From IMG/VR virus record IMGVR_UViG_3300006115_000009, positions 1-64,000 of that record: 64,000 bases of DNA, one strand, 5' to 3'. The notes under the pieces are model-generated. The model was not told the DNA's origin, searched no databases, and worked only from the letters and a program-made list of their open reading frames with translations. Positions 20,151-53,235 of the stretch are shown piece by piece. Position 1 is the stretch's first letter; every line of letters begins with the position of its first letter. This stretch comes from a virus. Taxonomy: Duplodnaviria; Caudoviricetes. Position numbers and translations under genes: made by a program.

Positions 20151-21683
20151 TTATCTTTCGTAAAAGGGACTCAGCCCAAGGTCTCCTACAAATTTACTGC
20201 CAAAATTGGGCATTGGCAAGGATTCGGCTACTTCCTCTCGCCCCATTACCATTGTGTCCGGAAGGCCAGTAGCAAAAACGGGAGACGATTCATAAATGAC
20301 AGGTCGAGCGTAATTGCCGGCGTACATACAAACATAACGAAGGGCGTCTGCAAGGTGGTCATCCACGTTGCGCGTCTCAGCGTCGTCAGGTTTTGAGGCG
20401 CTTCGGGGCAAAGCCGGAATCTGCTCAATAAACTGCGGGCACTTCTCTTCAAAAACGTGAAGCATTGGGCATTTCTCAAGACCCATTTGCTTGTGATATT
20501 CACAAGCGGGGCCGTCGTTGAGATACTGATGAACAATAGACCAGCCAATAATGCGGTCGTTGTCTGCCTTAATAATACCGCAACCATTCTGGCCATAAAT
20601 GTCAGCGATGGAAAGCGGTGTACCGCGATTACCCCACATAGAGGGGTCTGCAACGCGAATTACATCTTTTTCGCCGTGTGAGCGTTCTGTCTCCACAATA
20701 ATCTTGGCTTGGTCGTCGTTTTGGACGCCAGACACACAGATTTCGCGGTAAACCCAAATACGCCCGTCGTTGTCGACGGCAATCCAAACAACAGCGTAAG
20801 GGTCCCGGTAGCCCCAGTCAATCCCCGCATATCGCTGCCATTCTGGCGGCAAATCGAAGGCGGGAACAACGTGCTTAGAGAACTGCCATTGTTCAAAGAA
20901 TTGACCGACCATTGCATCCCAGTCACCGTCACGCATAGCAGCGCGGCGGCGGGGGTCTGGAATCGCATTAAGAACCGCTTCGTAATTTTCGTTAACGTGC
21001 GGGTTGTCGGTAACTTTAGCGGGAATGAACGCAACGGTTCGAGTCCACTTAGTGTCGTTAATCTGTTCGGTATAAAGTTGCTTGCCGCGCTTCGTCGGGT
21101 TGATGAAGCGGTCCTTAAGGTACTTGTGGCCCACGCCACCAGGGTTGGTAGCAAGGCGCAAGCCGATTACAGGAACAAGTTTATTACCGGAACGAAGACG
21201 CTCTTCAATGTGCTGGATAACTGCCGGCAACATCTGTGAGGCTTCGTCAATGTAGAAAGCCTGGTACTCACCACCGAGGATTCGGGATGCGTCAACAAGG
21301 TTTTCTGCGTAGGTGAAGTTGATGATTGAGTTGTTAGCGAACTTCAAGACCTTGTTGGTCGAGTTCCACTTTGCGCCCAAATCACGGCCGTAATTCCACT
21401 TAGCCAACTGTGAAAGAAAGGATTCTTCCAACTCGGGGTAAGAACGACGGAAACAGCCAATTCGCATTCCCGGATAGTTAGCAGCGTTGTATAACGCGTC
21501 CATCAAGAATGCAGCGGTTTTACCACCACCAGCAGCACCACCATACAAAATGGCGTCAATGCGCTCGGCAGAGGCTTCGTGAAATGCTACCTGCCTTGGA
21601 GTTGGTTCATAGCCAAGAATGCCAAAAACATCTACCTTCGGCGGTTGAACCGAATCGGATATGAACTTGCCAAAACTGGACAT
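20151..21683 (-). CDS. terL: Terminase large subunit
   Basis: Walker A GGAAGGGKT, Walker B 'FYIDEA', 'LATNPGG', nuclease 'GIDWG' and 'DDHLADALRY'. Confidence 0.96.
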   Translation of the reverse strand: MSSFGKFISDSVQPPKVDVFGILGYEPTPRQVAFHEASAERIDAILYGGAAGGGKTAAFLMDALYNAANYPGMRIGCFRRSYPELEESFLSQLAKWNYGRDLGAKWNSTNKVLKFANNSIINFTYAENLVDASRILGGEYQAFYIDEASQMLPAVIQHIEERLRSGNKLVPVIGLRLATNPGGVGHKYLKDRFINPTKRGKQLYTEQINDTKWTRTVAFIPAKVTDNPHVNENYEAVLNAIPDPRRRAAMRDGDWDAMVGQFFEQWQFSKHVVPAFDLPPEWQRYAGIDWGYRDPYAVVWIAVDNDGRIWVYREICVSGVQNDDQAKIIVETERSHGEKDVIRVADPSMWGNRGTPLSIADIYGQNGCGIIKADNDRIIGWSIVHQYLNDGPACEYHKQMGLEKCPMLHVFEEKCPQFIEQIPALPRSASKPDDAETRNVDDHLADALRYVCMYAGNYARPVIYESSPVFATGLPDTMVMGREEVAESLPMPNFGSKFVGDLGLSPFYER

Positions 21684-22854: not shown

Positions 22855-23178
22855 TCAAGGATTTGTTGACTTCAGCAACTTCACGAATGACTCGAGAGAC
22901 ATGGTGACGTAAGCCTTGCTAACGTTTTTGCGAGCGCGCTTGTGTACAACTGCCCACAACTTTTTTGCCTTAGAGCCGGCGACTTCTGCTTGGTCGCACC
23001 ATTCGGAAAGCGCCATTGCCTTGTGATTCTTTGCTTCCAAGACAATTGGCAGGTTCTTAATATCGCCAAGGTCCATCTGCGCGCTTCCGTAACGCTCTGC
23101 GTCGGGAAAACCGTTGTCGTTAAGGTAGCGAACTACCTCGGTTTCGAAACTGGTTCCTTTTTGGCGGGCCTTGGACAC
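22855..23178 (-). CDS. Holliday junction resolvase (PD-(D/E)xK, Hjc-like)
   Basis: 'KGTSFETEVVRYL', 'DLGDI', 'LEAKNHK' match actinophage resolvases. Confidence 0.85.
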   Translation of the reverse strand: MSKARQKGTSFETEVVRYLNDNGFPDAERYGSAQMDLGDIKNLPIVLEAKNHKAMALSEWCDQAEVAGSKAKKLWAVVHKRARKNVSKAYVTMSLESFVKLLKSTNP

Positions 23179-24868: not shown

Positions 24869-25294
24869 ATGGATAAATTCAACTGGATGGAAGAAGCGAC
24901 ATGCCGCGGTATGGACGTAAATATTTTTATGCCGGACGACGAGGGAAAGATTTCGTTGCCCAAGTTGCGTGCGGCGCAGAAAATATGCGCAGAGTGTCCA
25001 GTGAAGCAAGAGTGCCTACAATACGCAATCGACCTTGATATTACAGTTGGCATTTATGGCGGGATAAGTAACAAGGCTCGGCGTGAATACAAGAGCGGCA
25101 AGAAAAAAGCCACCTACAACAAGCCAGTCCGCAAGAAATCTTACGAAGAACTAAAGCATGGCACCATGAACGCTTACAGCCGTCACGGTTGCCGTTGTGA
25201 ACCCTGCAAGGAAGTTGCGCGTATTCACTGGCAGGAAATGGGAAAGAAAAACCGTCAAGCAGCACAGGCAAAAGCAAAGGAGTCAGCAGCATGA
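24869..25294 (+). CDS. whiB: WhiB-family Fe-S transcription factor with C-terminal HGT..CRC..C extension
   Basis: 'WMEEATCRG', 'ICAECPVKQECLQYA', 'GIYGG'. Confidence 0.9.
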   Translation: MDKFNWMEEATCRGMDVNIFMPDDEGKISLPKLRAAQKICAECPVKQECLQYAIDLDITVGIYGGISNKARREYKSGKKKATYNKPVRKKSYEELKHGTMNAYSRHGCRCEPCKEVARIHWQEMGKKNRQAAQAKAKESAA

Positions 25295-27670: not shown

Positions 27671-28084
27671 TTGAACGTTCACTTTTCATCCCAGCACGCA
27701 AACTGGCGTACTCCCGAGGGAATCTACAACCAACTCAACGAAGAGTTTGGGTTCAACTTTGACCCCTGCCCTCTTTACGGGGAGTTCTACGCCGAACAAA
27801 ACGGGGCGGTAGACGGCCTGAAAGTTAATTGGGGGTACACCACCTTTTGTAACCCGCCTTATGGCAAAGAGATAAGTAAGTGGACTGCCAAAGCCCGGGA
27901 AGAAGCCGAGAAGAACAAGACCGTTGTTTTGCTTGTCCCCAGCCGCACCGATACCGCGTGGTGGCACGATGATATTATGAAGGCGGACGAAATCCGGTTC
28001 ATTCGTGGCCGGTTAAAATTTGGCGGGGCAACTAGCGACGCTCCGTTCCCTAGCGCAGTTGTTATTTGGAGGAAAGAGGACTAA
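27671..28084 (+). CDS. Phage DNA N6-adenine methyltransferase (Dam-like, PF05869 type)
   Basis: 'WRTP', 'FNFDPC', 'FCNPPYG', 'LLVPSRTDTAWW', 'IRGRLKFGG', 'APFPS'. Confidence 0.9.
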   Translation: MNVHFSSQHANWRTPEGIYNQLNEEFGFNFDPCPLYGEFYAEQNGAVDGLKVNWGYTTFCNPPYGKEISKWTAKAREEAEKNKTVVLLVPSRTDTAWWHDDIMKADEIRFIRGRLKFGGATSDAPFPSAVVIWRKED

Positions 28085-28812: not shown

Positions 28813-29562
28813 TCAATCAAGCCCGCGCCACCGGTTCAAACCGTAGGGGTTCTTTGCAGCCTCTGACTTCCACACAACGATAGAACCGTCAGGCAACTTT
28901 ATAAACCTGTCTCCCAGGGTCGCGTACGCAGTGCCCCAGTAACTTTCTGACTCAATTCGTACGCCCTCTAGAACCCGCGAACCGTTCTTGTAGACCCAAG
29001 TTACCTCAAAGGTGGCAGAGGGCGCGAGAAACGATTCTAGGGCCTTCTCATCGAAGTCTGTGTCAATAGGCAATACGTCTACCGTAATCTTGGTGTCGTC
29101 GGTGTCAAATGCGGGCTTGCACTTGGCACAGTTCCCCCCGCAATTTTTTTTGGCACTAGGGGTACTCTTCAAAAGTGAGTCCCCCCACCCCTTCAAACTT
29201 TTGTCTTCCTTCTTGTTGAAGTGGATGTTGTCGATGTTCTTGACGAAATACTTCTCAAAGCCAGAAAGGGACTGAACTGTAGGCACTTTGTCCGTGGCCA
29301 CAATATAGCCGTTCTTGTCGACAAACTCGGTCATGTAGAACTCGCCCTTCTTATAGATGCGTAGTTCCAAACGTTGACGCTGAGCGGTGTCAAGAGCAGT
29401 AAGGATGACGACGCTGTAGTCGGTCACCCCCGCGAAAATTTTTGAAACCTGCTCGATGTTATTGCCCTTCCATACCGCATACTGGAAGATTTCGCCGTCT
29501 GAGATTCGCTTGCACTGTGCCATAGGTACATAGTGTACCAGAAGCCGCCGAAACCTGTCCAC
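28813..29562 (-). CDS. Hypothetical protein
   Basis: 249-aa ORF with normal composition; start uncertain (GTG 29562 or ATG 29523). Confidence 0.6.
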   Translation of the reverse strand: MDRFRRLLVHYVPMAQCKRISDGEIFQYAVWKGNNIEQVSKIFAGVTDYSVVILTALDTAQRQRLELRIYKKGEFYMTEFVDKNGYIVATDKVPTVQSLSGFEKYFVKNIDNIHFNKKEDKSLKGWGDSLLKSTPSAKKNCGGNCAKCKPAFDTDDTKITVDVLPIDTDFDEKALESFLAPSATFEVTWVYKNGSRVLEGVRIESESYWGTAYATLGDRFIKLPDGSIVVWKSEAAKNPYGLNRWRGLD

Positions 29563-29576
29563 TCTTTGTGCTGAAT

Positions 29577-29590
29577 TGAACAGATGTTCG
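29577..29590. promoter_or_regulatory. Candidate LexA (SOS) box
   Basis: TGAAC-AGAT-GTTCG matches the Gram-positive/actinobacterial GAAC-N4-GTTC core, between divergent genes. Confidence 0.5.
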
Positions 29591-29740
29591 GATATATGGC
29601 AATGAATTATATGCGTGTTGGTACCGGGCCGATCTAGTCGTGTTACCGCTTCGCGTCGCTGGCGCGTTATGCTGGTCGCGTAGCGACAACCCCGCTACCG
29701 GCGCGACAAGCGCGCCGCACAGCACAGAAAGGTGACACCT

Positions 29741-30538
29741 ATGTCACGTACTAACAACAACAACAGCACGCGCAAGGCGTGCGGAACTGTATTTACAGAA
29801 CCGACAACGCTTAGCGCGTTTGTCTACAACAACGACGGCGCAACACCGGACGATGACACACAAGCGTTAGTGTCCGTGTCGGTGGAGACTGGCGCGCTAT
29901 TGGCGAACGTCGCGGACGCGGTGTCGTTGTCCGTCGCGGACGCAACGTCCGCTATCGGTAACCGCACCGGCGCGGACGCACAGCGCGCCTATGTCGGCGC
30001 GCTGTTGTCTGGCGCGTGGTCTAGTGCCGTCGCGGACGAAGCGCGCCGACACAGCGGTAACGCGTGGAAGTTCACAACGGCCTGCGTCGTAGACAACGCG
30101 CTCGCGTCGCTTACCATTAACGCGGAAGTAGAAACCGGCGGACACGATGGCAATAACCGGACGTTGTACCTTGTCGCTACTGTGTCTACGTTCGACACCG
30201 GCGCGGAAGTTGTCCACCACGTTCACAGCGCGCGCAACGCTACGCGCATCACCGCGTCGTGCGGTTGCGTTAAGGCTTATCGCGGTGTTGTTGTCGGTGA
30301 TGCGCTAACGCTAGGTGTTCACGATGTAGCGCGCGCTATCCGCGCGTTGCGTGTCGCGGTTGCCGGTAGCGGTACTGTGTCCGCTATCCTGAACGCGGTT
30401 AAGGCACAGGAACAGCACAGCGCGGAACAGTTGTCGAACGTGCCAAACATTTGGACTGGTGGCGTAATCCGTCGCGATAAGGCGCGCGTGTCCGGTGTCG
30501 CGTTGTCGGAAGTGGCGCGCGAGATAGCGACGCGCTAA
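29741..30538 (+). CDS. Hypothetical Ala/Val/Thr-rich protein encoded in strongly purine-pyrimidine-alternating DNA
   Basis: TATGCT -10 at 29668, 5' hairpin, GAAAGG RBS, ATG 29741, downstream perfect hairpin. Confidence 0.65.
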   Translation: MSRTNNNNSTRKACGTVFTEPTTLSAFVYNNDGATPDDDTQALVSVSVETGALLANVADAVSLSVADATSAIGNRTGADAQRAYVGALLSGAWSSAVADEARRHSGNAWKFTTACVVDNALASLTINAEVETGGHDGNNRTLYLVATVSTFDTGAEVVHHVHSARNATRITASCGCVKAYRGVVVGDALTLGVHDVARAIRALRVAVAGSGTVSAILNAVKAQEQHSAEQLSNVPNIWTGGVIRRDKARVSGVALSEVAREIATR

Positions 30539-30545
30539 CCGGCGC

Positions 30546-30580
30546 GGATAACCGGCGCGGAAGTTGCGCGCCGGTTATCC
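30546..30580 (+). terminator. Perfect 14-bp hairpin
   Basis: GGATAACCGGCGCG-N7-CGCGCCGGTTATCC right after the stop codon. Confidence 0.65.
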
Positions 30581-30640
30581 GGTGGCGCGTGTCCGGCGCG
30601 CGTGTCCGTAATGGGCGCGCGCGCCGGTTGCGTGTCCGGC

Positions 30641-30822
30641 GCGACGTGGGCGCGTGGGCGCGCGACGTGGGCGCGTGGGCGCGTGGGCGCGTGGGCGCGT
30701 GGGCGCGTGGGCGCGTGGGCGCGCGACGTGGGCGCGTGGGCGCGTGGGCGCGTGGGCGCGTGGGCGCGTGGGCGCGTGGGCGCGTGGGCGCGTGGGCGCG
30801 CGACGTGGGCGCGTGGGCGCGT
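30641..30822. repeat. Tandem array (GGGCGCGT)n with interspersed GGGCGCGCGACGT variants
   Basis: About 20 units read directly. Confidence 0.95.
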
Positions 30823-30826
30823 GTCG

Positions 30827-30870
30827 TTGTCCACAACTTATCAACAAGTAATCCACAGGGCTGTGGATAA
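30827..30870. promoter_or_regulatory. Cluster of four DnaA boxes
   Basis: TTGTCCACA 30827, TTATCAACA 30838, TAATCCACA 30849, TGTGGATAA 30862 (reverse TTATCCACA); 11-bp spacing of the first three. Confidence 0.8.
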
Positions 30871-30960
30871 CCCTCGATCGGCCCCTATCGCGCCCGTGTA
30901 TGCGCGTGCGCCGAGAGCGTTTCAGGAAATTCCCCGTGTGCGCGATGTATTTCAGGGGTG

Positions 30961-31132
30961 GTCACGCGTGCGTAATCGCGCCCGTGTGCGCGTGCGCGCC
31001 CGTGTGCGCGTGCGCCTGCGCGCCCGTGTGCGTGCGTGCGTGTGCGCGCCATCGCGCGTATGCGTGCGCCTGCGTGTGCGCGTGTGCGCGCGTGCCATCG
31101 CGCGCGTGTGTGAGCGCGCGTGCGAGCGCGCG
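30961..31132. repeat. Degenerate (GTGCGC)n microsatellite
   Basis: Alternating purine-pyrimidine tract read directly. Confidence 0.85.
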
Positions 31133-31199
31133 ATAATTCTGTAAATACGCGCCACGCGTGAGAGAAATTTAGGGAATTGCCCGACGTGCGAATGTGTTC

Positions 31200-31400
31200 C
31201 TGGAAATCGCGCGCGTGTGTGAGGGAATTCCAGGAAATCCTCGCGTGTGTGCGTACACTACGCGCGGAGGCGCATCAGGAAATCGCGCAAGTGTGTGGGA
31301 AATCCTTTTTTTCCCGCGCGCAAACCCTTTTTTTACGCGTGCGCGCAACTCCTTTTTTTTCGCGCGCGTATGCGGGCAGCATTTTTTTTCGCGCGCGATA
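31200..31400. repeat. GGAAATC..CGTGTG iteron-like repeats and four T7-8 tracts separated by CGCG blocks
   Basis: GGAAAT-led copies near 30924, 31202, 31231, 31278, 31298; T-tracts near 31306, 31327, 31353, 31382. Confidence 0.65.
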
Positions 31401-31521
31401 AATCGTGCTGACCAATCGCGCGACGGCGCACACCACCGTCACCAGGAAAATTCACGGAATTCTCTGTGGTGGAATTGTATAGTGGGGTGGTATCGCGCTC
31501 GAGGTGGCACTACCACCTCCC

Positions 31522-31671
31522 CTATTCGGGGAGGCGGCGTGCGCTTGGGTGACGGCGCTTGGCCTGTTCGACGGCCTCGGCCTCGGCCAACTGAAGGGCG
31601 GCCTCCTGCCAGTTCCAGACCAGAGCGACCACGCCGTTGCTGGCGTTCTTGCGGTGTTCGGACTTCTTCAT
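31522..31671 (-). CDS. 49-aa protein, leftward cassette
   Basis: -10 TAATCT, hairpin, GAAAGGA RBS, MKKSEHRKNASNGVVALVWNWQEAALQ... Confidence 0.7.
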   Translation of the reverse strand: MKKSEHRKNASNGVVALVWNWQEAALQLAEAEAVEQAKRRHPSARRLPE

Positions 31672-31815
31672 AGTGTTCCTTTCACTTAGCGGGCTTGTCC
31701 CGCTGAAACCAGATTAACACAACGGCTCGCATCGCGCACGCGCGATTCGATCGGCCAGTGATATGCTGGATTTCGTCAGGGGGCAAGCCCCTGCCAATAC
31801 CCCAAGGGGATACTA

Positions 31816-31959
31816 ATGGCTTTCACTCAGCGACTTCAGGGCGACGTTTCAACCGGCAACGGAATGGGCGTAAACGCTTTCGGGCAAGAGGTGCGTATTG
31901 AGTTCTGCTGTCGGAACAACGCCGACGGCTACGACTGCGGTTGCGGAGAGGAGTGGTGA
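31816..31959 (+). CDS. 47-aa Cys-containing protein
   Basis: Cassette promoter and RBS; MAFTQRLQG...FCCRNNADGYDCGCGEEW. Confidence 0.65.
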   Translation: MAFTQRLQGDVSTGNGMGVNAFGQEVRIEFCCRNNADGYDCGCGEEW

Positions 31960-32058
31960 GAGGGGCAATCGCGCGCATACGCAATCGCGCCCGCGCGATG
32001 GAACCGGCTTAGTAATCTGTTGATGTAGTGATGTTGCTACCTTACGAAAGGATTTATT

Positions 32059-37437: not shown

Positions 37438-37453
37438 TGTTTCACGTGAAACA
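37438..37453. other. parS site (perfect chromosomal consensus)
   Basis: TGTTTCACGTGAAACA, one base after a stop codon. Confidence 0.85.
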
Positions 37454-42707: not shown

Positions 42708-42723
42708 TGTTTCACGTGAAACA
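42708..42723. other. parS site (perfect chromosomal consensus)
   Basis: TGTTTCACGTGAAACA, one base after a stop codon. Confidence 0.85.
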
Positions 42724-52341: not shown

Positions 52342-53235
52342 CTATTCGCTTACGTACTTGCGCTTACCGCTAGCCGTATCCAACTCGTATGGGGCCCCAT
52401 TCGCATCTACCAACTGCCCCATTGAGTTGACAGGACGATTGTAGCCATGCTTGGCGGGGTTGTCAATAAGAACTTTTCCATTCTTGTCGGCCCACTTGCC
52501 GGAGCGGTCGTAATCGTCGTAAATATTCGCTGATACGCGGTCTTCGATGCTCATCTTTTCGACCACCGGCAGGTAATCACGCCAGCGTTCGTCTGGGCCA
52601 AAAAAGGTAGCGCCGTGAAGAGTAAACGCTTCTTCCTTGCCCTCACGTTGCTTGGCGTACTCGGCCACTGCGTTAATCAAATCGCAGACAGACACGCCAC
52701 GCTTCACTGTTGCGCAGTACGCCTTGTAGGCACCGCCCTTGTTGATGCGACGCGGGTATACCTTCCACACCTCGTCGAAGTCTGCCGTGTAATCAACCTT
52801 CTTGTTTTTGCGCTTCGTCGCAGAAACTTCAGAGTTAGTTGTGGTTCCTTCTTTTGTGGTTCCTTCATGTGTCCGCACCGGTGCGGCTAGGGTGGCCGCA
52901 ACCATGCGGCTAGGTGGGGGCACCTGTGCGGCTACCTGGAGGCCAAGGTGCGGCCACACGTAGTAAAGCGAACTGCTGTACGAACCGTCTTCCCGCTGTC
53001 GACGTTCAATGTTGATGGCACCAATGTCAACTAGTTCCTTAAGTGCTCGGTCAAGGCTGTCAACTGAGCAGTTAATCCGCCCAGCCATAGTCGTACGTGA
53101 TGGCCACGCTGAATCGTTGGCACCCACATAGCGAGACAGGATGCTAAAAACACGCACAGCCCGGTCGCTAATCTCGGCGTCCAAAACCCACTCGGGGACA
53201 ACGGCGTACCGATACCCAATTACTTCGTCGTTCAT
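52342..53235 (-). CDS. Replication initiator (N-terminal winged HTH)
   Basis: 'AWPSRTTMAGRINCSVDSLDRALKEL', 'FDEVWKVYPRR', 'HGATFFGPDERW'. Confidence 0.82.
   Translation of the reverse strand: MNDEVIGYRYAVVPEWVLDAEISDRAVRVFSILSRYVGANDSAWPSRTTMAGRINCSVDSLDRALKELVDIGAINIERRQREDGSYSSSLYYVWPHLGLQVAAQVPPPSRMVAATLAAPVRTHEGTTKEGTTTNSEVSATKRKNKKVDYTADFDEVWKVYPRRINKGGAYKAYCATVKRGVSVCDLINAVAEYAKQREGKEEAFTLHGATFFGPDERWRDYLPVVEKMSIEDRVSANIYDDYDRSGKWADKNGKVLIDNPAKHGYNRPVNSMGQLVDANGAPYELDTASGKRKYVSE

What the first reader, a model, noticed from the sequence alone, without database searches (positions are those of the whole stretch)
30538..31400. Origin-like block: DnaA-box cluster fused to a G-quadruplex-competent tandem array, iterons and T-tracts
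Seen: about 20 GGG tracts spaced by 5 nt ((GGGCGCGT)n, a canonical G3N5 G4 pattern) end 4 bp before four DnaA boxes, including the actinobacterial TTGTCCACA and a reverse TTATCCACA. A (GTGCGC)n Z-DNA-prone tract, GGAAATC..CGTGTG repeats and four T7-8 tracts follow. The window encodes an initiator and helicase but no DNA polymerase, consistent with host replisome use. Inference: a hybrid origin (host DnaA plus phage Rep) or a datA-like DnaA sink, with non-B DNA aiding unwinding or marking the packaging/entry end.
Basis: partly seen in the sequence, partly recalled or inferred. Interest (0 to 1): 0.75.

Follow-up and report, generated by a model that had tools for sequence, protein, structure and literature searches.

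The report
Phage DnaA-box repeat block, not origin
An uncultured phage of Actinobacteria has a 0.9-kb gene-free repeat block with four neatly phased binding sites for DnaA, the host's replication starter protein. The block looks less like the phage's own replication origin than like the DnaA-box-bearing "injection stop" repeat region of phage T5, whose function is still unsolved.

Summary
The block holds 21 GGG runs (17 perfect GGGCGCGT units), then four DnaA boxes in 44 bp, three of them at exact 11-bp phase. It also holds 12 of the genome's 37 long alternating purine-pyrimidine runs, five GGAAATC..GTGTG units and four T7-8 tracts.

The origin reading is weakly supported:
- The Rep gene 22 kb away carries its own lambda-like origin: three iterons at 22-bp spacing next to a weak, easily melted stretch.
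- The Rep iteron motif is absent from the block.
- The DnaA boxes lie against the most stable duplex in the genome, with no unwinding element.
- The "iterons", split palindromes and T-tract units are copies of elements dispersed through the adjacent early-gene island.
- Syntenic relatives keep a strongly conserved repeat block but have no DnaA boxes and no G-array.

The quartet itself is far beyond chance. Its inverted pair matches a motif found in 88 bacterial species genomes, many of them Actinomycetota. Similar DnaA-box clusters sit in long untranslated repeat regions of T5-like phages (the iss region), Streptomyces phage Comrade and C. difficile phage phiCDHM19.

Best reading: a boundary element that docks host DnaA without unwinding, acting as a sink, tether or roadblock. 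The same quartet was also noted earlier in this scan on this genome (e1-5907044).

The parts
29741..30538 (+). Last gene of the upstream operon (P0002, 265 aa, unknown function). It neighbours the block in two lineages.
   Evidence: A 100% identical protein is seen on 15 contigs, and a homologue at 39% identity (P0003) keeps conserved motifs. No Pfam or PHROG hit. AF2 model pLDDT 65.6, with no convincing fold match.
30545..30581 (+). Strong hairpin (18-nt arms, 94% complementary), taken as the terminator of the upstream operon.
   Evidence: Inverted repeat I7. It starts 7 nt after the stop codon at 30536-30538.
30645..30823 (+). G-rich minisatellite (GGGCGCGT)n: 17 perfect units plus 3 variants of 13 nt, about 84% G+C.
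   Evidence: It is the most stable duplex of the region, at -1.9 kcal/mol per step. G4Hunter is about 1.0-1.2. It is absent from relatives.
30827..30870 (.). DnaA-box quartet: three direct boxes at 11-bp phase plus one inverted perfect box. Boxes 3 and 4 form a near-perfect 24-bp palindrome.
   Evidence: The inverted pair with its GGGC spacer recurs in 88 bacterial species genomes.
30887..31136 (+). Split halves of the early-island palindrome (ATCGCGC ... GCGCGAT) pushed apart by GTGCGC-type alternating purine-pyrimidine filler.
   Evidence: The ATCGCGC half-site occurs 51 times in the genome: 8 in the block, 43 in the island and 0 elsewhere. GTGCGC outnumbers GCGCAC 11 to 1. Alternating runs reach 25 nt.
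30913..30963 (+). First copy in the block of the island's ~42-bp dispersed element (GTTTCA-GGAAAT..GTG..ATGTATTTC).
   Evidence: Aligns collinearly with six island copies (alignment A4).
31157..31305 (+).
   Evidence: (family D8).
31306..31398 (+). Four T7-8 tracts, each followed by a CGCGCG-type stretch; the last ends in a palindrome half-site (GCGCGAT).
   Evidence: Start-to-start spacing of 22, 25 and 29 nt is not in helical phase. A similar T-tract + ATCGCGCG unit occurs in the relative L132.
31500..31540 (-). Two hairpins at the 3' end of the small minus-strand gene, so the block lies between two convergent 3' ends.
   Evidence: Read directly from the sequence.
31522..31671 (-). A 49-aa minus-strand gene with a ribosome-binding site. 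It is transcribed from the first island palindrome (31731-31746) towards the block.
   Evidence: A small minus-strand gene sits at the same place in L132.
52830..52945 (-). Candidate Rep-dependent origin inside the rep gene: TAGCCGCAC x3 at about 22-bp spacing, then GAAGGAACCACAA x2 in a low-stability stretch.
   Evidence: Its stability is among the weakest 3.4% of 30-mers in the window. Rep is lambda-O/DnaD-like.
37438..37453 (.). Perfect host-type parS.
   Evidence: None in island-bearing relatives.
42708..42723 (.). Perfect host-type parS.

Best explanation
The block is the untranslated upstream border of the phage's early-gene island. It lies between the terminator hairpin of a host-promoter-driven operon (about 23.8-30.5 kb) and the 3' end of a small minus-strand gene.

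**Conserved core.** The core is made of the island's own repeat vocabulary: split ATCGCGC/GCGCGAT palindromes, tandem copies of a ~42-bp dispersed element, and T-tract/CGCGCG units.

**Lineage-specific additions.** This lineage has added two things: a slippage-type GC-rich 8-mer minisatellite, and directly beside it a quartet of helically phased host DnaA boxes.

**Proposed mechanism (inferred).** Host DnaA oligomerises on the quartet. The quartet is clamped by hyperstable GC duplex and has no unwinding element, so the complex does not open DNA. It acts as a DnaA dock. The dock would hold DnaA away from the host origin as phage copies multiply (a datA-like sink). It could also hold this part of the phage DNA at DnaA-rich sites, or block transcription read-through into the island.

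This is the logic proposed, and still unproven, for the DnaA boxes of the T5 injection-stop repeat region. The phage's own Rep-driven origin is most likely the iteron set inside the rep gene at about 52.9 kb.

**Shown:** the anatomy, the significance of the quartet, the absence of a DUE, the absence of Rep iterons from the block, the homology of the repeats to island elements, and conservation of the core in relatives. **Inferred:** DnaA binding and its consequence.
For: - **Quartet beyond chance.** Four boxes in 44 bp, three at exact 11-bp phase. This never occurred in 150 simulated genomes; Poisson expectation about 4e-6.
- **Host-type motif.** The inverted pair plus spacer (ATCCAC-A-GGGCTGTGGATAA) recurs in 88 bacterial species genomes against about 9 expected. 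34 of the 80 titled records are Actinomycetota. Some lie in multi-box oriC-like clusters, and one lies upstream of dnaX.
- **Host.** A WhiB-like gene supports an actinobacterial host.
- **No melting element.** Duplex stability is -1.9 kcal/mol per step in the flanking array. No 30-mer in the block is beyond the genome's weakest 5%.
- **Rep origin elsewhere.** Iterons and a weak stretch lie inside rep, and that motif is absent from the block.
- **Block belongs to the island system.** All 51 ATCGCGC half-sites of the genome lie in the block (8) or the island (43). The GGAAATC..GTGTG units align with the island's dispersed element.
- **Homologous block in relatives.** The syntenic relative L132 has a block with the same vocabulary and orientation: 31 shared 9-mers against 5.4 +/- 3.6 in shuffles. 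Across three strains that block has 4 variable columns of 430, against 50 of 509 in the flanking genes; Fisher p = 4e-10.
- **Precedents.** Phased DnaA-box clusters sit in long untranslated repeat regions of a T5-like Klebsiella phage, Streptomyces phage Comrade and phiCDHM19.
- **Literature.** Davison 2020 (bioRxiv 10.1101/866236) describes the T5 iss region. It is conserved more than the ORFs, carries paired DnaA boxes including the TTATCAACA variant, and lies away from the replication origins.
- **Other host origin-region sites.** The genome also carries a second DnaA-box trio and two perfect parS sites. So it collects cis sites of the host origin region.
Against: - No binding or functional data exist.
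- The relatives that share the block's core lack DnaA boxes. G004 has a single perfect box. The boxes therefore cannot explain why the core is conserved, and they may be a recent, even dispensable, addition.
- A quartet per genome copy may be too few sites to titrate DnaA unless copy number is high.
- The T5 model itself is an untested hypothesis from a preprint.
- The physical genome ends and any terminal redundancy are unknown.
- The second DnaA trio lies inside a coding sequence and could be coincidental.
Confidence: 0.4

Rival explanations
1. The block is an auxiliary, host-DnaA-dependent replication origin (oriC-like). It would be used besides or before the Rep origin, with non-B DNA (Z-DNA, G4, cruciforms) taking the place of an AT-rich unwinding element.
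For: - A phased DnaA quartet of oriC type.
- The phage has no DNA polymerase and must recruit the host replisome.
- The block is dense in Z-prone and G-rich tracts, which absorb negative supercoils.
- The strong strand asymmetry would favour R-loops if the block is transcribed rightwards.
- P1 oriR and many plasmids combine DnaA boxes with other elements (established knowledge).
Against: - There is no DUE and no DnaA-trio next to the boxes, and the flanks are the most stable DNA in the genome.
- A complete lambda-type origin exists inside rep.
- Rep iterons are absent from the block.
- The block's 'iterons' are dispersed island elements.
- Relatives keep the block without boxes.
- In T5-like phages similar boxes are not at the origins.
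Confidence: 0.15
2. The block is a regulatory super-site and insulator for the early island. It is a concentrated cluster of the sites used singly across the island (palindrome halves, ~42-bp element). It buffers the island's regulator and stops read-through between two transcription units. On this reading the DnaA boxes and the G-array are minor or neutral add-ons.
For: - Half-sites occur only in the block and the island.
- The element copies are homologous.
- The block lies between convergent 3' ends, with hairpins on both sides.
- The core is under strong purifying selection in relatives that lack DnaA boxes.
- A WhiB-HTH candidate regulator is encoded in the upstream operon.
Against: - It does not explain a quartet whose phasing and sequence are far beyond chance and match a widespread bacterial DnaA motif.
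- The split palindromes have half-sites 20-50 bp apart, which a dimer fitted to a 2-bp spacer should not bind.
Confidence: 0.2
3. The block marks a physical landmark of the virion DNA: the inner edge of a long terminal repeat, an injection-stop site as in T5, or a packaging or concatemer-junction region.
For: - Its architecture parallels T5 Repeat Region 3: about 1 kb untranslated, many direct and inverted repeats, DnaA boxes, next to host-takeover-type genes.
- The upstream operon, from the divergent promoter region at about 23.7 kb to the block, is about 8.5% of the genome, close to T5's 7.9% first-step DNA (a loose analogy).
- In one unrelated contig the same 8-mer array lies about 380 bp upstream of terS.
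Against: - The record is a circular assembly with only a 120-bp overlap, and no reads were available.
- TerL is not T5-like.
- terL and the candidate small-terminase genes are 8 kb away.
- Contigs of relatives do not break at the block.
- Two-step injection is known only in T5-like phages.
Confidence: 0.12
4. The block is mostly neutral junk: replication-slippage expansions of CG-rich motifs in a tolerant intergenic gap, possibly with the array length distorted by short-read assembly.
For: - GC-rich 8-mer arrays are common in viral contigs. A control with the unit read backwards gives 6 contigs, against 3 for the real unit.
- The G-array and the GTGCGC filler are absent from relatives.
- The array is 179 bp, near short-read length.
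Against: - The DnaA quartet cannot be slippage.
- The homologous core is conserved more strongly than the neighbouring genes.
- The phage was assembled independently several times at nearly the same length: 15 contigs, longest 78,940 bp.
Confidence: 0.08

Closest known systems
T5-type untranslated Repeat Region 3 / injection stop signal (iss) of Demerecviridae (Heusterspreute 1987 as cited in, and Davison 2020, bioRxiv 10.1101/866236)
   Same: Both are untranslated blocks of about 1 kb packed with direct repeats, inverted repeats and palindromes. Both carry closely spaced consensus and one-mismatch DnaA boxes, including the same TTATCAACA variant. Both lie next to a region of small early or host-takeover genes and away from the phage's replication origin. 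In T5-likes the non-coding sequence is conserved more than the neighbouring ORFs. Here the same holds for the repeat core of the block's counterpart in the relatives L131, L132 and L134.
   Different: There is no sequence homology, and the terminase lineage and host phylum differ. T5 boxes come in pairs 3 bp apart inside two large inverted repeats. Here there is a single quartet with 2-bp spacers (11-bp phase), plus a trio 31 kb away (the shorter way round the circular map). A terminal repeat, two-step injection and A1/A2-like genes are not shown. The G-rich minisatellite and the Z-prone filler have no T5 counterpart.
E. coli datA (DnaA-titrating / DnaA-ATP-hydrolysis locus)
   Same: Both are clusters of a few high-affinity DnaA boxes with no unwinding element, so DnaA would bind without initiation.
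   Different: datA needs IHF and a defined box spacing for DDAH. Nothing comparable can be tested here. This element is on a phage that multiplies, and it is flanked by repeats of a phage regulatory system.
Bacterial oriC and DnaA-assisted plasmid or phage origins (P1 oriR, pSC101, RK2)
   Same: Phased DnaA boxes of consensus type. The inverted pair is identical to a motif found in bacterial chromosomes, including multi-box oriC-like clusters.
   Different: There is no DUE, no DnaA-trio and no adjacent Rep iterons. The Rep gene with its own iterons lies 22 kb away.
DnaA-box clusters in untranslated regions of cultured phages (Streptomyces phage Comrade NC_048728 at about 121.98-122.19 kb; C. 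difficile phage phiCDHM19 next to int)
   Same: Comrade has an inverted pair with a nearly identical spacer (TTATCCAC-GGGC-TGTGGATAA) in a 1.46-kb gene-free stretch. phiCDHM19 has four boxes at 11- to 12-bp steps.
   Different: These phages are unrelated and their flanking elements differ. I found no literature on these clusters. Their function is unknown.
Lambda ori (iterons inside gene O)
   Same: This applies to the Rep-gene element at 52830-52945, not to the block. Repeats at two-turn spacing sit in the linker-coding part of an O/DnaD-like initiator gene, followed by a weak A-rich stretch.
   Different: Three iterons rather than four, with no sequence similarity, and untested.

Membership tests
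oriC-type DnaA-dependent origin | Cluster of DnaA boxes | tested here: met
   Four boxes with up to 1 mismatch in 44 bp, three at 11-bp phase.
oriC-type DnaA-dependent origin | AT-rich DNA unwinding element next to the boxes | tested here: not met
   Nearest-neighbour stability profile: the flanks are at -1.7 to -1.96 kcal/mol per step, and no 30-mer in the block is beyond the genome's weakest 5%.
oriC-type DnaA-dependent origin | DnaA-trio repeats beside a box | tested here: not met
   Direct reading of both flanks. The left flank is the 8-mer array. The right flank is CCCTCGATCGGCCCC..., with no tandem TAR trinucleotides.
oriC-type DnaA-dependent origin | Supports DnaA-dependent initiation | not testable with these tools
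   Needs a minireplicon or marker-frequency analysis.
Iteron/Rep origin (lambda ori, P1 oriR type) | Binding repeats of the element's own initiator within the origin | tested here: not met
   The repeat inside rep (CTAGCCGCAC) has its three clustered copies there, a few scattered chance-level 1-mismatch hits elsewhere in the window and none in the block. The block's own repeats are copies of a dispersed island element.
Iteron/Rep origin (lambda ori, P1 oriR type) | Origin inside or adjacent to the rep gene | tested here: not met
   The block is 22 kb from rep.
datA-like DnaA sink | Several high-affinity boxes without an unwinding element | tested here: met
datA-like DnaA sink | Lowers available DnaA-ATP (titration or DDAH with a bending protein) | not testable with these tools
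   Needs in vivo or in vitro assays.
T5-type iss repeat region | Untranslated region of about 1 kb dense in direct repeats, inverted repeats and palindromes | tested here: met
   34 direct-repeat families and 52 inverted pairs in the 2.5 kb searched around the block (29500-32000). No credible ORF, Rfam family or sigma-70 promoter lies in the block.
T5-type iss repeat region | Closely spaced consensus and variant DnaA boxes | tested here: met
   For comparison, see the T5-like Klebsiella phage and the description.
T5-type iss repeat region | Lies at the inner edge of a long terminal repeat that enters the cell first | not testable with these tools
   The record is a circular assembly with a 120-bp overlap; no reads.
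T5-type iss repeat region | Non-coding sequence conserved more than neighbouring ORFs | tested here: inconclusive
   True for the homologous core in three strains of a relative (4/430 against 50/509 variable columns). Those strains lack the DnaA boxes, and closer relatives of this phage could not be fetched.
T5-type iss repeat region | Homology to T5-like phages (terminase, A1/A2) | tested here: not met
   No T5-like (Demerecviridae) phage appears among the 85 TerL relatives listed of the 717 matching records; those listed are Arthrobacter, Roseobacter, 9g-like and PaMx-like phages. A1/A2 were not searched.
G-quadruplex-forming tandem repeat | At least 4 G3 tracts with loops of 1-7 nt | tested here: met
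   10 overlapping canonical starts, all inside the array.
G-quadruplex-forming tandem repeat | G4 propensity above the usual G4Hunter thresholds (1.2-1.5), without a stronger competing fold | tested here: inconclusive
   Mean 1.02, maximum 1.2. A hairpin of -72 kcal/mol competes with it.
Z-DNA-prone tract | Long alternating purine-pyrimidine GC-rich runs | tested here: met
   12 runs of 12-25 nt within 480 bp, out of 37 in the genome. Actual Z formation is not testable here.

The most novel reading that the evidence does not exclude
The phage has assembled a mimic of the host's chromosomal origin neighbourhood. It consists of a phased DnaA-box quartet, a second DnaA-box trio, and two perfect parS sites 6.6 and 11.8 kb from the quartet. 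None of the parS or the quartet is found in its island-bearing relatives. The mimic would capture the host's origin-organising proteins (DnaA and ParB). That could arrest host initiation and free the replisome for a polymerase-less phage. It could also position or segregate the phage DNA with the host origin region. A T5-like DnaA-dependent pause of DNA entry in a Gram-positive host is a rarer version of the same idea.
Probability: 0.3. Interest if true: 0.75.

Novelty: new variant of a known kind. Interest (0 to 1): 0.5.

Why it matters
DnaA-box clusters in long untranslated repeat regions now turn up in unrelated phages: T5-likes, a Streptomyces phage, a C. difficile phage and this actinophage. 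Their role is unsolved even in T5, nearly 40 years after they were first seen.

This genome offers a compact case for study. It has four phased boxes with no unwinding element, a separate Rep origin and orphan parS sites. That would let origin, sink, tether and roadblock functions be separated experimentally. If phages commonly dock host DnaA without using it to initiate, that is an under-appreciated route of host take-over. It is also a caution against calling origins from DnaA boxes alone, as Ori-Finder-type predictions on phages do.

Tried and rejected
- **Chi-site array.** The unit contains GCGCGTG, recalled from memory as the Lactococcus Chi. There is no genome-wide excess or orientation skew of that 7-mer or of any rotation of the unit outside the block. 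Dropped.
- **Recurrence of the G-array as a sign of function.** (GGGCGCGT)x3 occurs in 3 unrelated viral contigs. The unit read backwards gives 6. Recurrence is therefore not special.
- **DnaA boxes conserved at the island border in relatives.** The perfect boxes in G001 and G003 lie inside a conserved small membrane-protein ORF. This is a coding coincidence. Only G004 has one box in the non-coding border.
- **Close relatives.** Megablast against phages found nothing. The exact quartet pattern found nothing in viral contigs. So the 15 contigs encoding P0002 could not be fetched, and array-length polymorphism could not be checked.
- **Function of the neighbouring gene P0002.** No Pfam or PHROG hit, and only 12 representatives. 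The AF2 model is of medium quality. Foldseek against PDB and BFVD gave nothing. The best VIA Z of 7.3 is within that tool's background.
- **Known RNA families and promoters.** No Rfam family reached its gathering score, and there is no sigma-70-type promoter inside the block.
- **GC skew.** It follows gene orientation and island composition and does not help to locate an origin.
- **Genes flanking the bacterial copies of the inverted DnaA pair.** Most ORFs I picked in the high-GC genomes gave no family. Only a Kribbella copy upstream of dnaX was informative.
- **Literature on DnaA boxes in actinophages.** None found.
Full report
**What the window is.** The window is the first 64 kb of a 78,902-bp IMG/VR virus record. 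Its ends overlap by 120 bp, so it is a circular assembly of about 78.8 kb. It is a tailed phage.
- TerL (20151-21683) and portal lie on the minus strand. The replication genes are a lambda-O/DnaD-like initiator (52342-53235), a DnaB-like helicase and a second helicase.
- No family A, B or C DNA polymerase is found anywhere in the genome.
- A WhiB-like regulator with a C-terminal HTH (24869-25294) points to an actinobacterial host. So do TerL's best cultured relatives, Arthrobacter phages at about 33% identity.

- *G-array.* Between the stop codon of gene 29741-30538 and about 31500 there is no credible gene. TRF reports a period-8 array at 30645-30823. It parses into 17 perfect GGGCGCGT units in blocks of 1, 6, 8 and 2, separated by three 13-nt variants, giving 21 GGG runs. 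All ten canonical G3N1-7 x4 starts on the plus strand of the genome lie inside it.
- *DnaA boxes.* Four nucleotides after the array come TTGTCCACA (30827), TTATCAACA (30838) and TAATCCACA (30849) at exact 11-bp steps. An inverted perfect TTATCCACA follows at 30862.
- *Significance.* The window's total of boxes with up to one mismatch is what chance gives. Four within 44 bp never appeared in 150 Markov-1 genomes (largest cluster 2), and the Poisson expectation is about 4e-6.
- *Other features.* Twelve of the genome's 37 alternating purine-pyrimidine runs of 12 nt or more lie in 30895-31374. GGAAATC occurs 4:0 on the plus strand. Four T7-8 tracts lie at 31306-31389.
- *Qualifications.* G4Hunter for the array is about 1.0 (maximum 1.2), and the G strand can form a hairpin of -72 kcal/mol. 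G4 competence is therefore formal only.

**Context.** The block lies between convergent 3' ends.
- Upstream, an operon starts at a host-type promoter (TTGACA-17-TAGTCT near 23.8 kb). It ends with gene P0002 and an 18-nt-arm hairpin at 30545-30581.
- Downstream, a 49-aa minus-strand gene (31522-31671) ends in hairpins at 31500-31540.
- To the right begins an island in which the 16-bp palindrome ATCGCGC-NN-GCGCGAT occurs 33 times between 31731 and 44572 and nowhere else. Earlier notes of this scan describe these as promoter-heading palindromes.

**The block is built from the island's vocabulary.**
- The half-site ATCGCGC occurs 51 times in the genome: 8 in the block, 43 in the island, none in the other 65 kb.
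- In the block the two halves are pushed 20-50 bp apart by GTGCGC-type filler.
- They are therefore not origin-specific repeats.

**Is it the Rep origin? No.**
- Inside rep, in the part encoding the linker between the N-terminal DNA-binding domain and the DnaD-like domain, TAGCCGCAC occurs three times at about 22-bp spacing. A direct repeat GAAGGAACCACAA x2 follows, in a stretch whose duplex stability is among the weakest 3.4% of the window. This is the lambda ori layout.
- That iteron motif is absent from the block, which is 22 kb away.

**Is it a DnaA-only origin? Unlikely.**
- The quartet is flanked by the most stable duplex in the genome, at -1.9 kcal/mol per step.
- No 30-mer in the block is beyond the genome's weakest 5%.
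- There are no DnaA-trio repeats next to the boxes.

**Relatives.** Several metagenomic phages share the palindrome island.
- None has a tight DnaA-box cluster.
- The perfect boxes near the island border in two low-GC lineages lie inside a conserved small ORF.
- G004 has one perfect box in its 630-bp non-coding border.

Gene P0002 is real. An identical protein is seen on 15 contigs, and there is a homologue at 39% identity. Through that homologue I reached a syntenic lineage, L131/L132/L134. Its layout is:
- gene, hairpin, two small genes, hairpin;
- a 430-bp non-coding block;
- a small minus-strand gene, then the first palindrome.

That block has split palindromes, GGTTTTCC..TGTGTG units and T-tract + ATCGCGCG units, but no DnaA box and no G-array. 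It shares 31 9-mers with the right part of our block on the same strand, against 5.4 +/- 3.6 in shuffles and 11 on the opposite strand. Across the three strains it has 4 variable columns of 430, against 50 of 509 in the flanking genes; Fisher p = 4e-10.

So the repeat core is a selected cis element. The G-array and the DnaA quartet are additions of this lineage.

**The G-array.** The same unit repeated three times occurs in three unrelated viral contigs, always in non-coding DNA and once about 380 bp upstream of terS. The unit read backwards gives six contigs, so such GC-rich minisatellites are ordinary. No Chi-like skew of its 7-mers exists elsewhere in the genome. I take it as a slippage product whose effect, if any, is that of a rigid GC spacer.

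**The quartet is a genuine DnaA-type module.** The inverted pair with its spacer was searched as ATCCAC-N0-1-GGGCTGTGGATAA. It occurs in 88 species genomes of 185,579, against about 9 expected for 19 fixed bases.
- 34 of the 80 titled records are Actinomycetota.
- Many are extended palindromes, and some lie inside clusters of 11-15 boxes.
- One lies upstream of dnaX.

**Precedents in phages.** BLAST of the 54-bp quartet led to three cases:
- *T5-like phages.* Klebsiella phage AmPh_EK80 has a 1.8-kb gene-free stretch full of repeats. It carries TTATCCACA-gac-TTATCAACA-gg-TTATCCTAC.
- *Streptomyces phage Comrade.* It has a 1.46-kb gene-free stretch with TTATCCAC-GGGC-TGTGGATAA and two further boxes.
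- *C. difficile phage phiCDHM19.* It has four boxes at 11- to 12-bp steps next to int.

For T5, Davison (bioRxiv 10.1101/866236) reports the following:
- The 1.2-kb untranslated Repeat Region 3 lies at the inner edge of the left terminal repeat and is the presumed injection stop signal.
- It carries paired DnaA boxes (TTATCCACA, TTATCAACA, TTATCCCCA) in all 25 T5-like phages compared.
- It is conserved more than the neighbouring ORFs.
- It lies far from the replication origins.
- He proposes, without test, that membrane-bound DnaA holds the entering DNA there.

This is the closest known analogue in architecture. There is no homology, and TerL is not T5-like.

**Other host origin-region sites.** The genome has a second cluster of three boxes at 78355-78392, outside the window and inside a minus-strand ORF whose translation I read by eye as a GT2 glycosyltransferase with TPR repeats (no family search was run). 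A cluster of three also never appeared in the simulations. It also has two perfect parS sites at 37438 and 42708. These are absent from the island-bearing relatives and from Comrade.

**Conclusion.**
- Most likely (0.4): the block is the border element of the early island, onto which this lineage has grafted a non-unwinding DnaA dock, acting as a sink, tether or roadblock.
- Rivals: an auxiliary DnaA origin (0.15), a regulator super-site with incidental boxes (0.2), a physical terminus or injection-stop landmark (0.12), and neutral expansion or assembly artefact (0.08).
- Nothing here is shown biochemically.
- Tools that failed or were closed, and leads that died, are listed under Tried and rejected.

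Noticed in passing
L235:2356-2393 (genome 78355-78392, outside the window): A second DnaA-box cluster: TAATCCACA, TTTTCCACA and TTATCAACA within 38 bp. It lies inside a minus-strand ORF that I read by eye as a GT2 glycosyltransferase with TPR repeats; no family search was run. The ORF's paralogue next door lacks the boxes. A trio in 60 bp never occurred in 150 simulated genomes.
   Followed up: partly
window 52830-52945 (-): A lambda-ori-like element inside the rep gene: TAGCCGCAC x3 at about 22-bp spacing, then GAAGGAACCACAA x2 in a low-stability stretch. It lies in the linker-coding part of the O/DnaD-like initiator.
   Followed up: partly
window 24869-25294 (+): A WhiB-like protein with a C-terminal HTH, in the operon driven by a host-type promoter (TTGACA-17-TAGTCT at about 23.8 kb). 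It is a candidate activator for the island's palindrome-headed promoters, which lack a -35 box, and for the half-sites in the block.
   Followed up: no
window 37438-37453 and 42708-42723: Two perfect host-type parS sites (TGTTTCACGTGAAACA). None is found in the island-bearing relatives G001, G003 and G004.
   Followed up: partly
L147-L234 (88 bacterial species genomes): The 22-bp inverted DnaA-box pair TTATCCACA-GGGC-TGTGGATAA recurs across phyla, often with extended palindromic flanks and as an isolated intergenic element. It is about ten times commoner than chance and is enriched in Actinomycetota. I do not know what these isolated palindromes do.
   Followed up: partly
L145:1491-1537 (Clostridium phage phiCDHM19, LK985322 at about 33.93 kb): Four DnaA boxes (TTATCCACA, TTTTCCACA, TTATCCCCA, TTATCCACA) at 11- to 12-bp steps. 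They lie between the 3' ends of the integrase gene and a regulator gene, beside ATGTCAGT-type repeats.
   Followed up: no
L144:1311-1535 (Streptomyces phage Comrade, NC_048728 121.98-122.19 kb): A 1.46-kb gene-free stretch with a convergent DnaA-box pair, a third box next to it and a perfect box 190 bp away. No literature on it was found.
   Followed up: partly
window 27671-28084 (+) and 22855-23178 (-): A phage Dam-type N6-adenine methyltransferase (PF05869) and a RusA-like Holliday junction resolvase (phrog_244).
   Followed up: no
L128:210-840 (G004, 96-kb relative): The non-coding border of this relative's palindrome island has one perfect TTATCCACA and three to four copies of a 26-bp TAGTAGGAAAT-type repeat.
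   Followed up: partly
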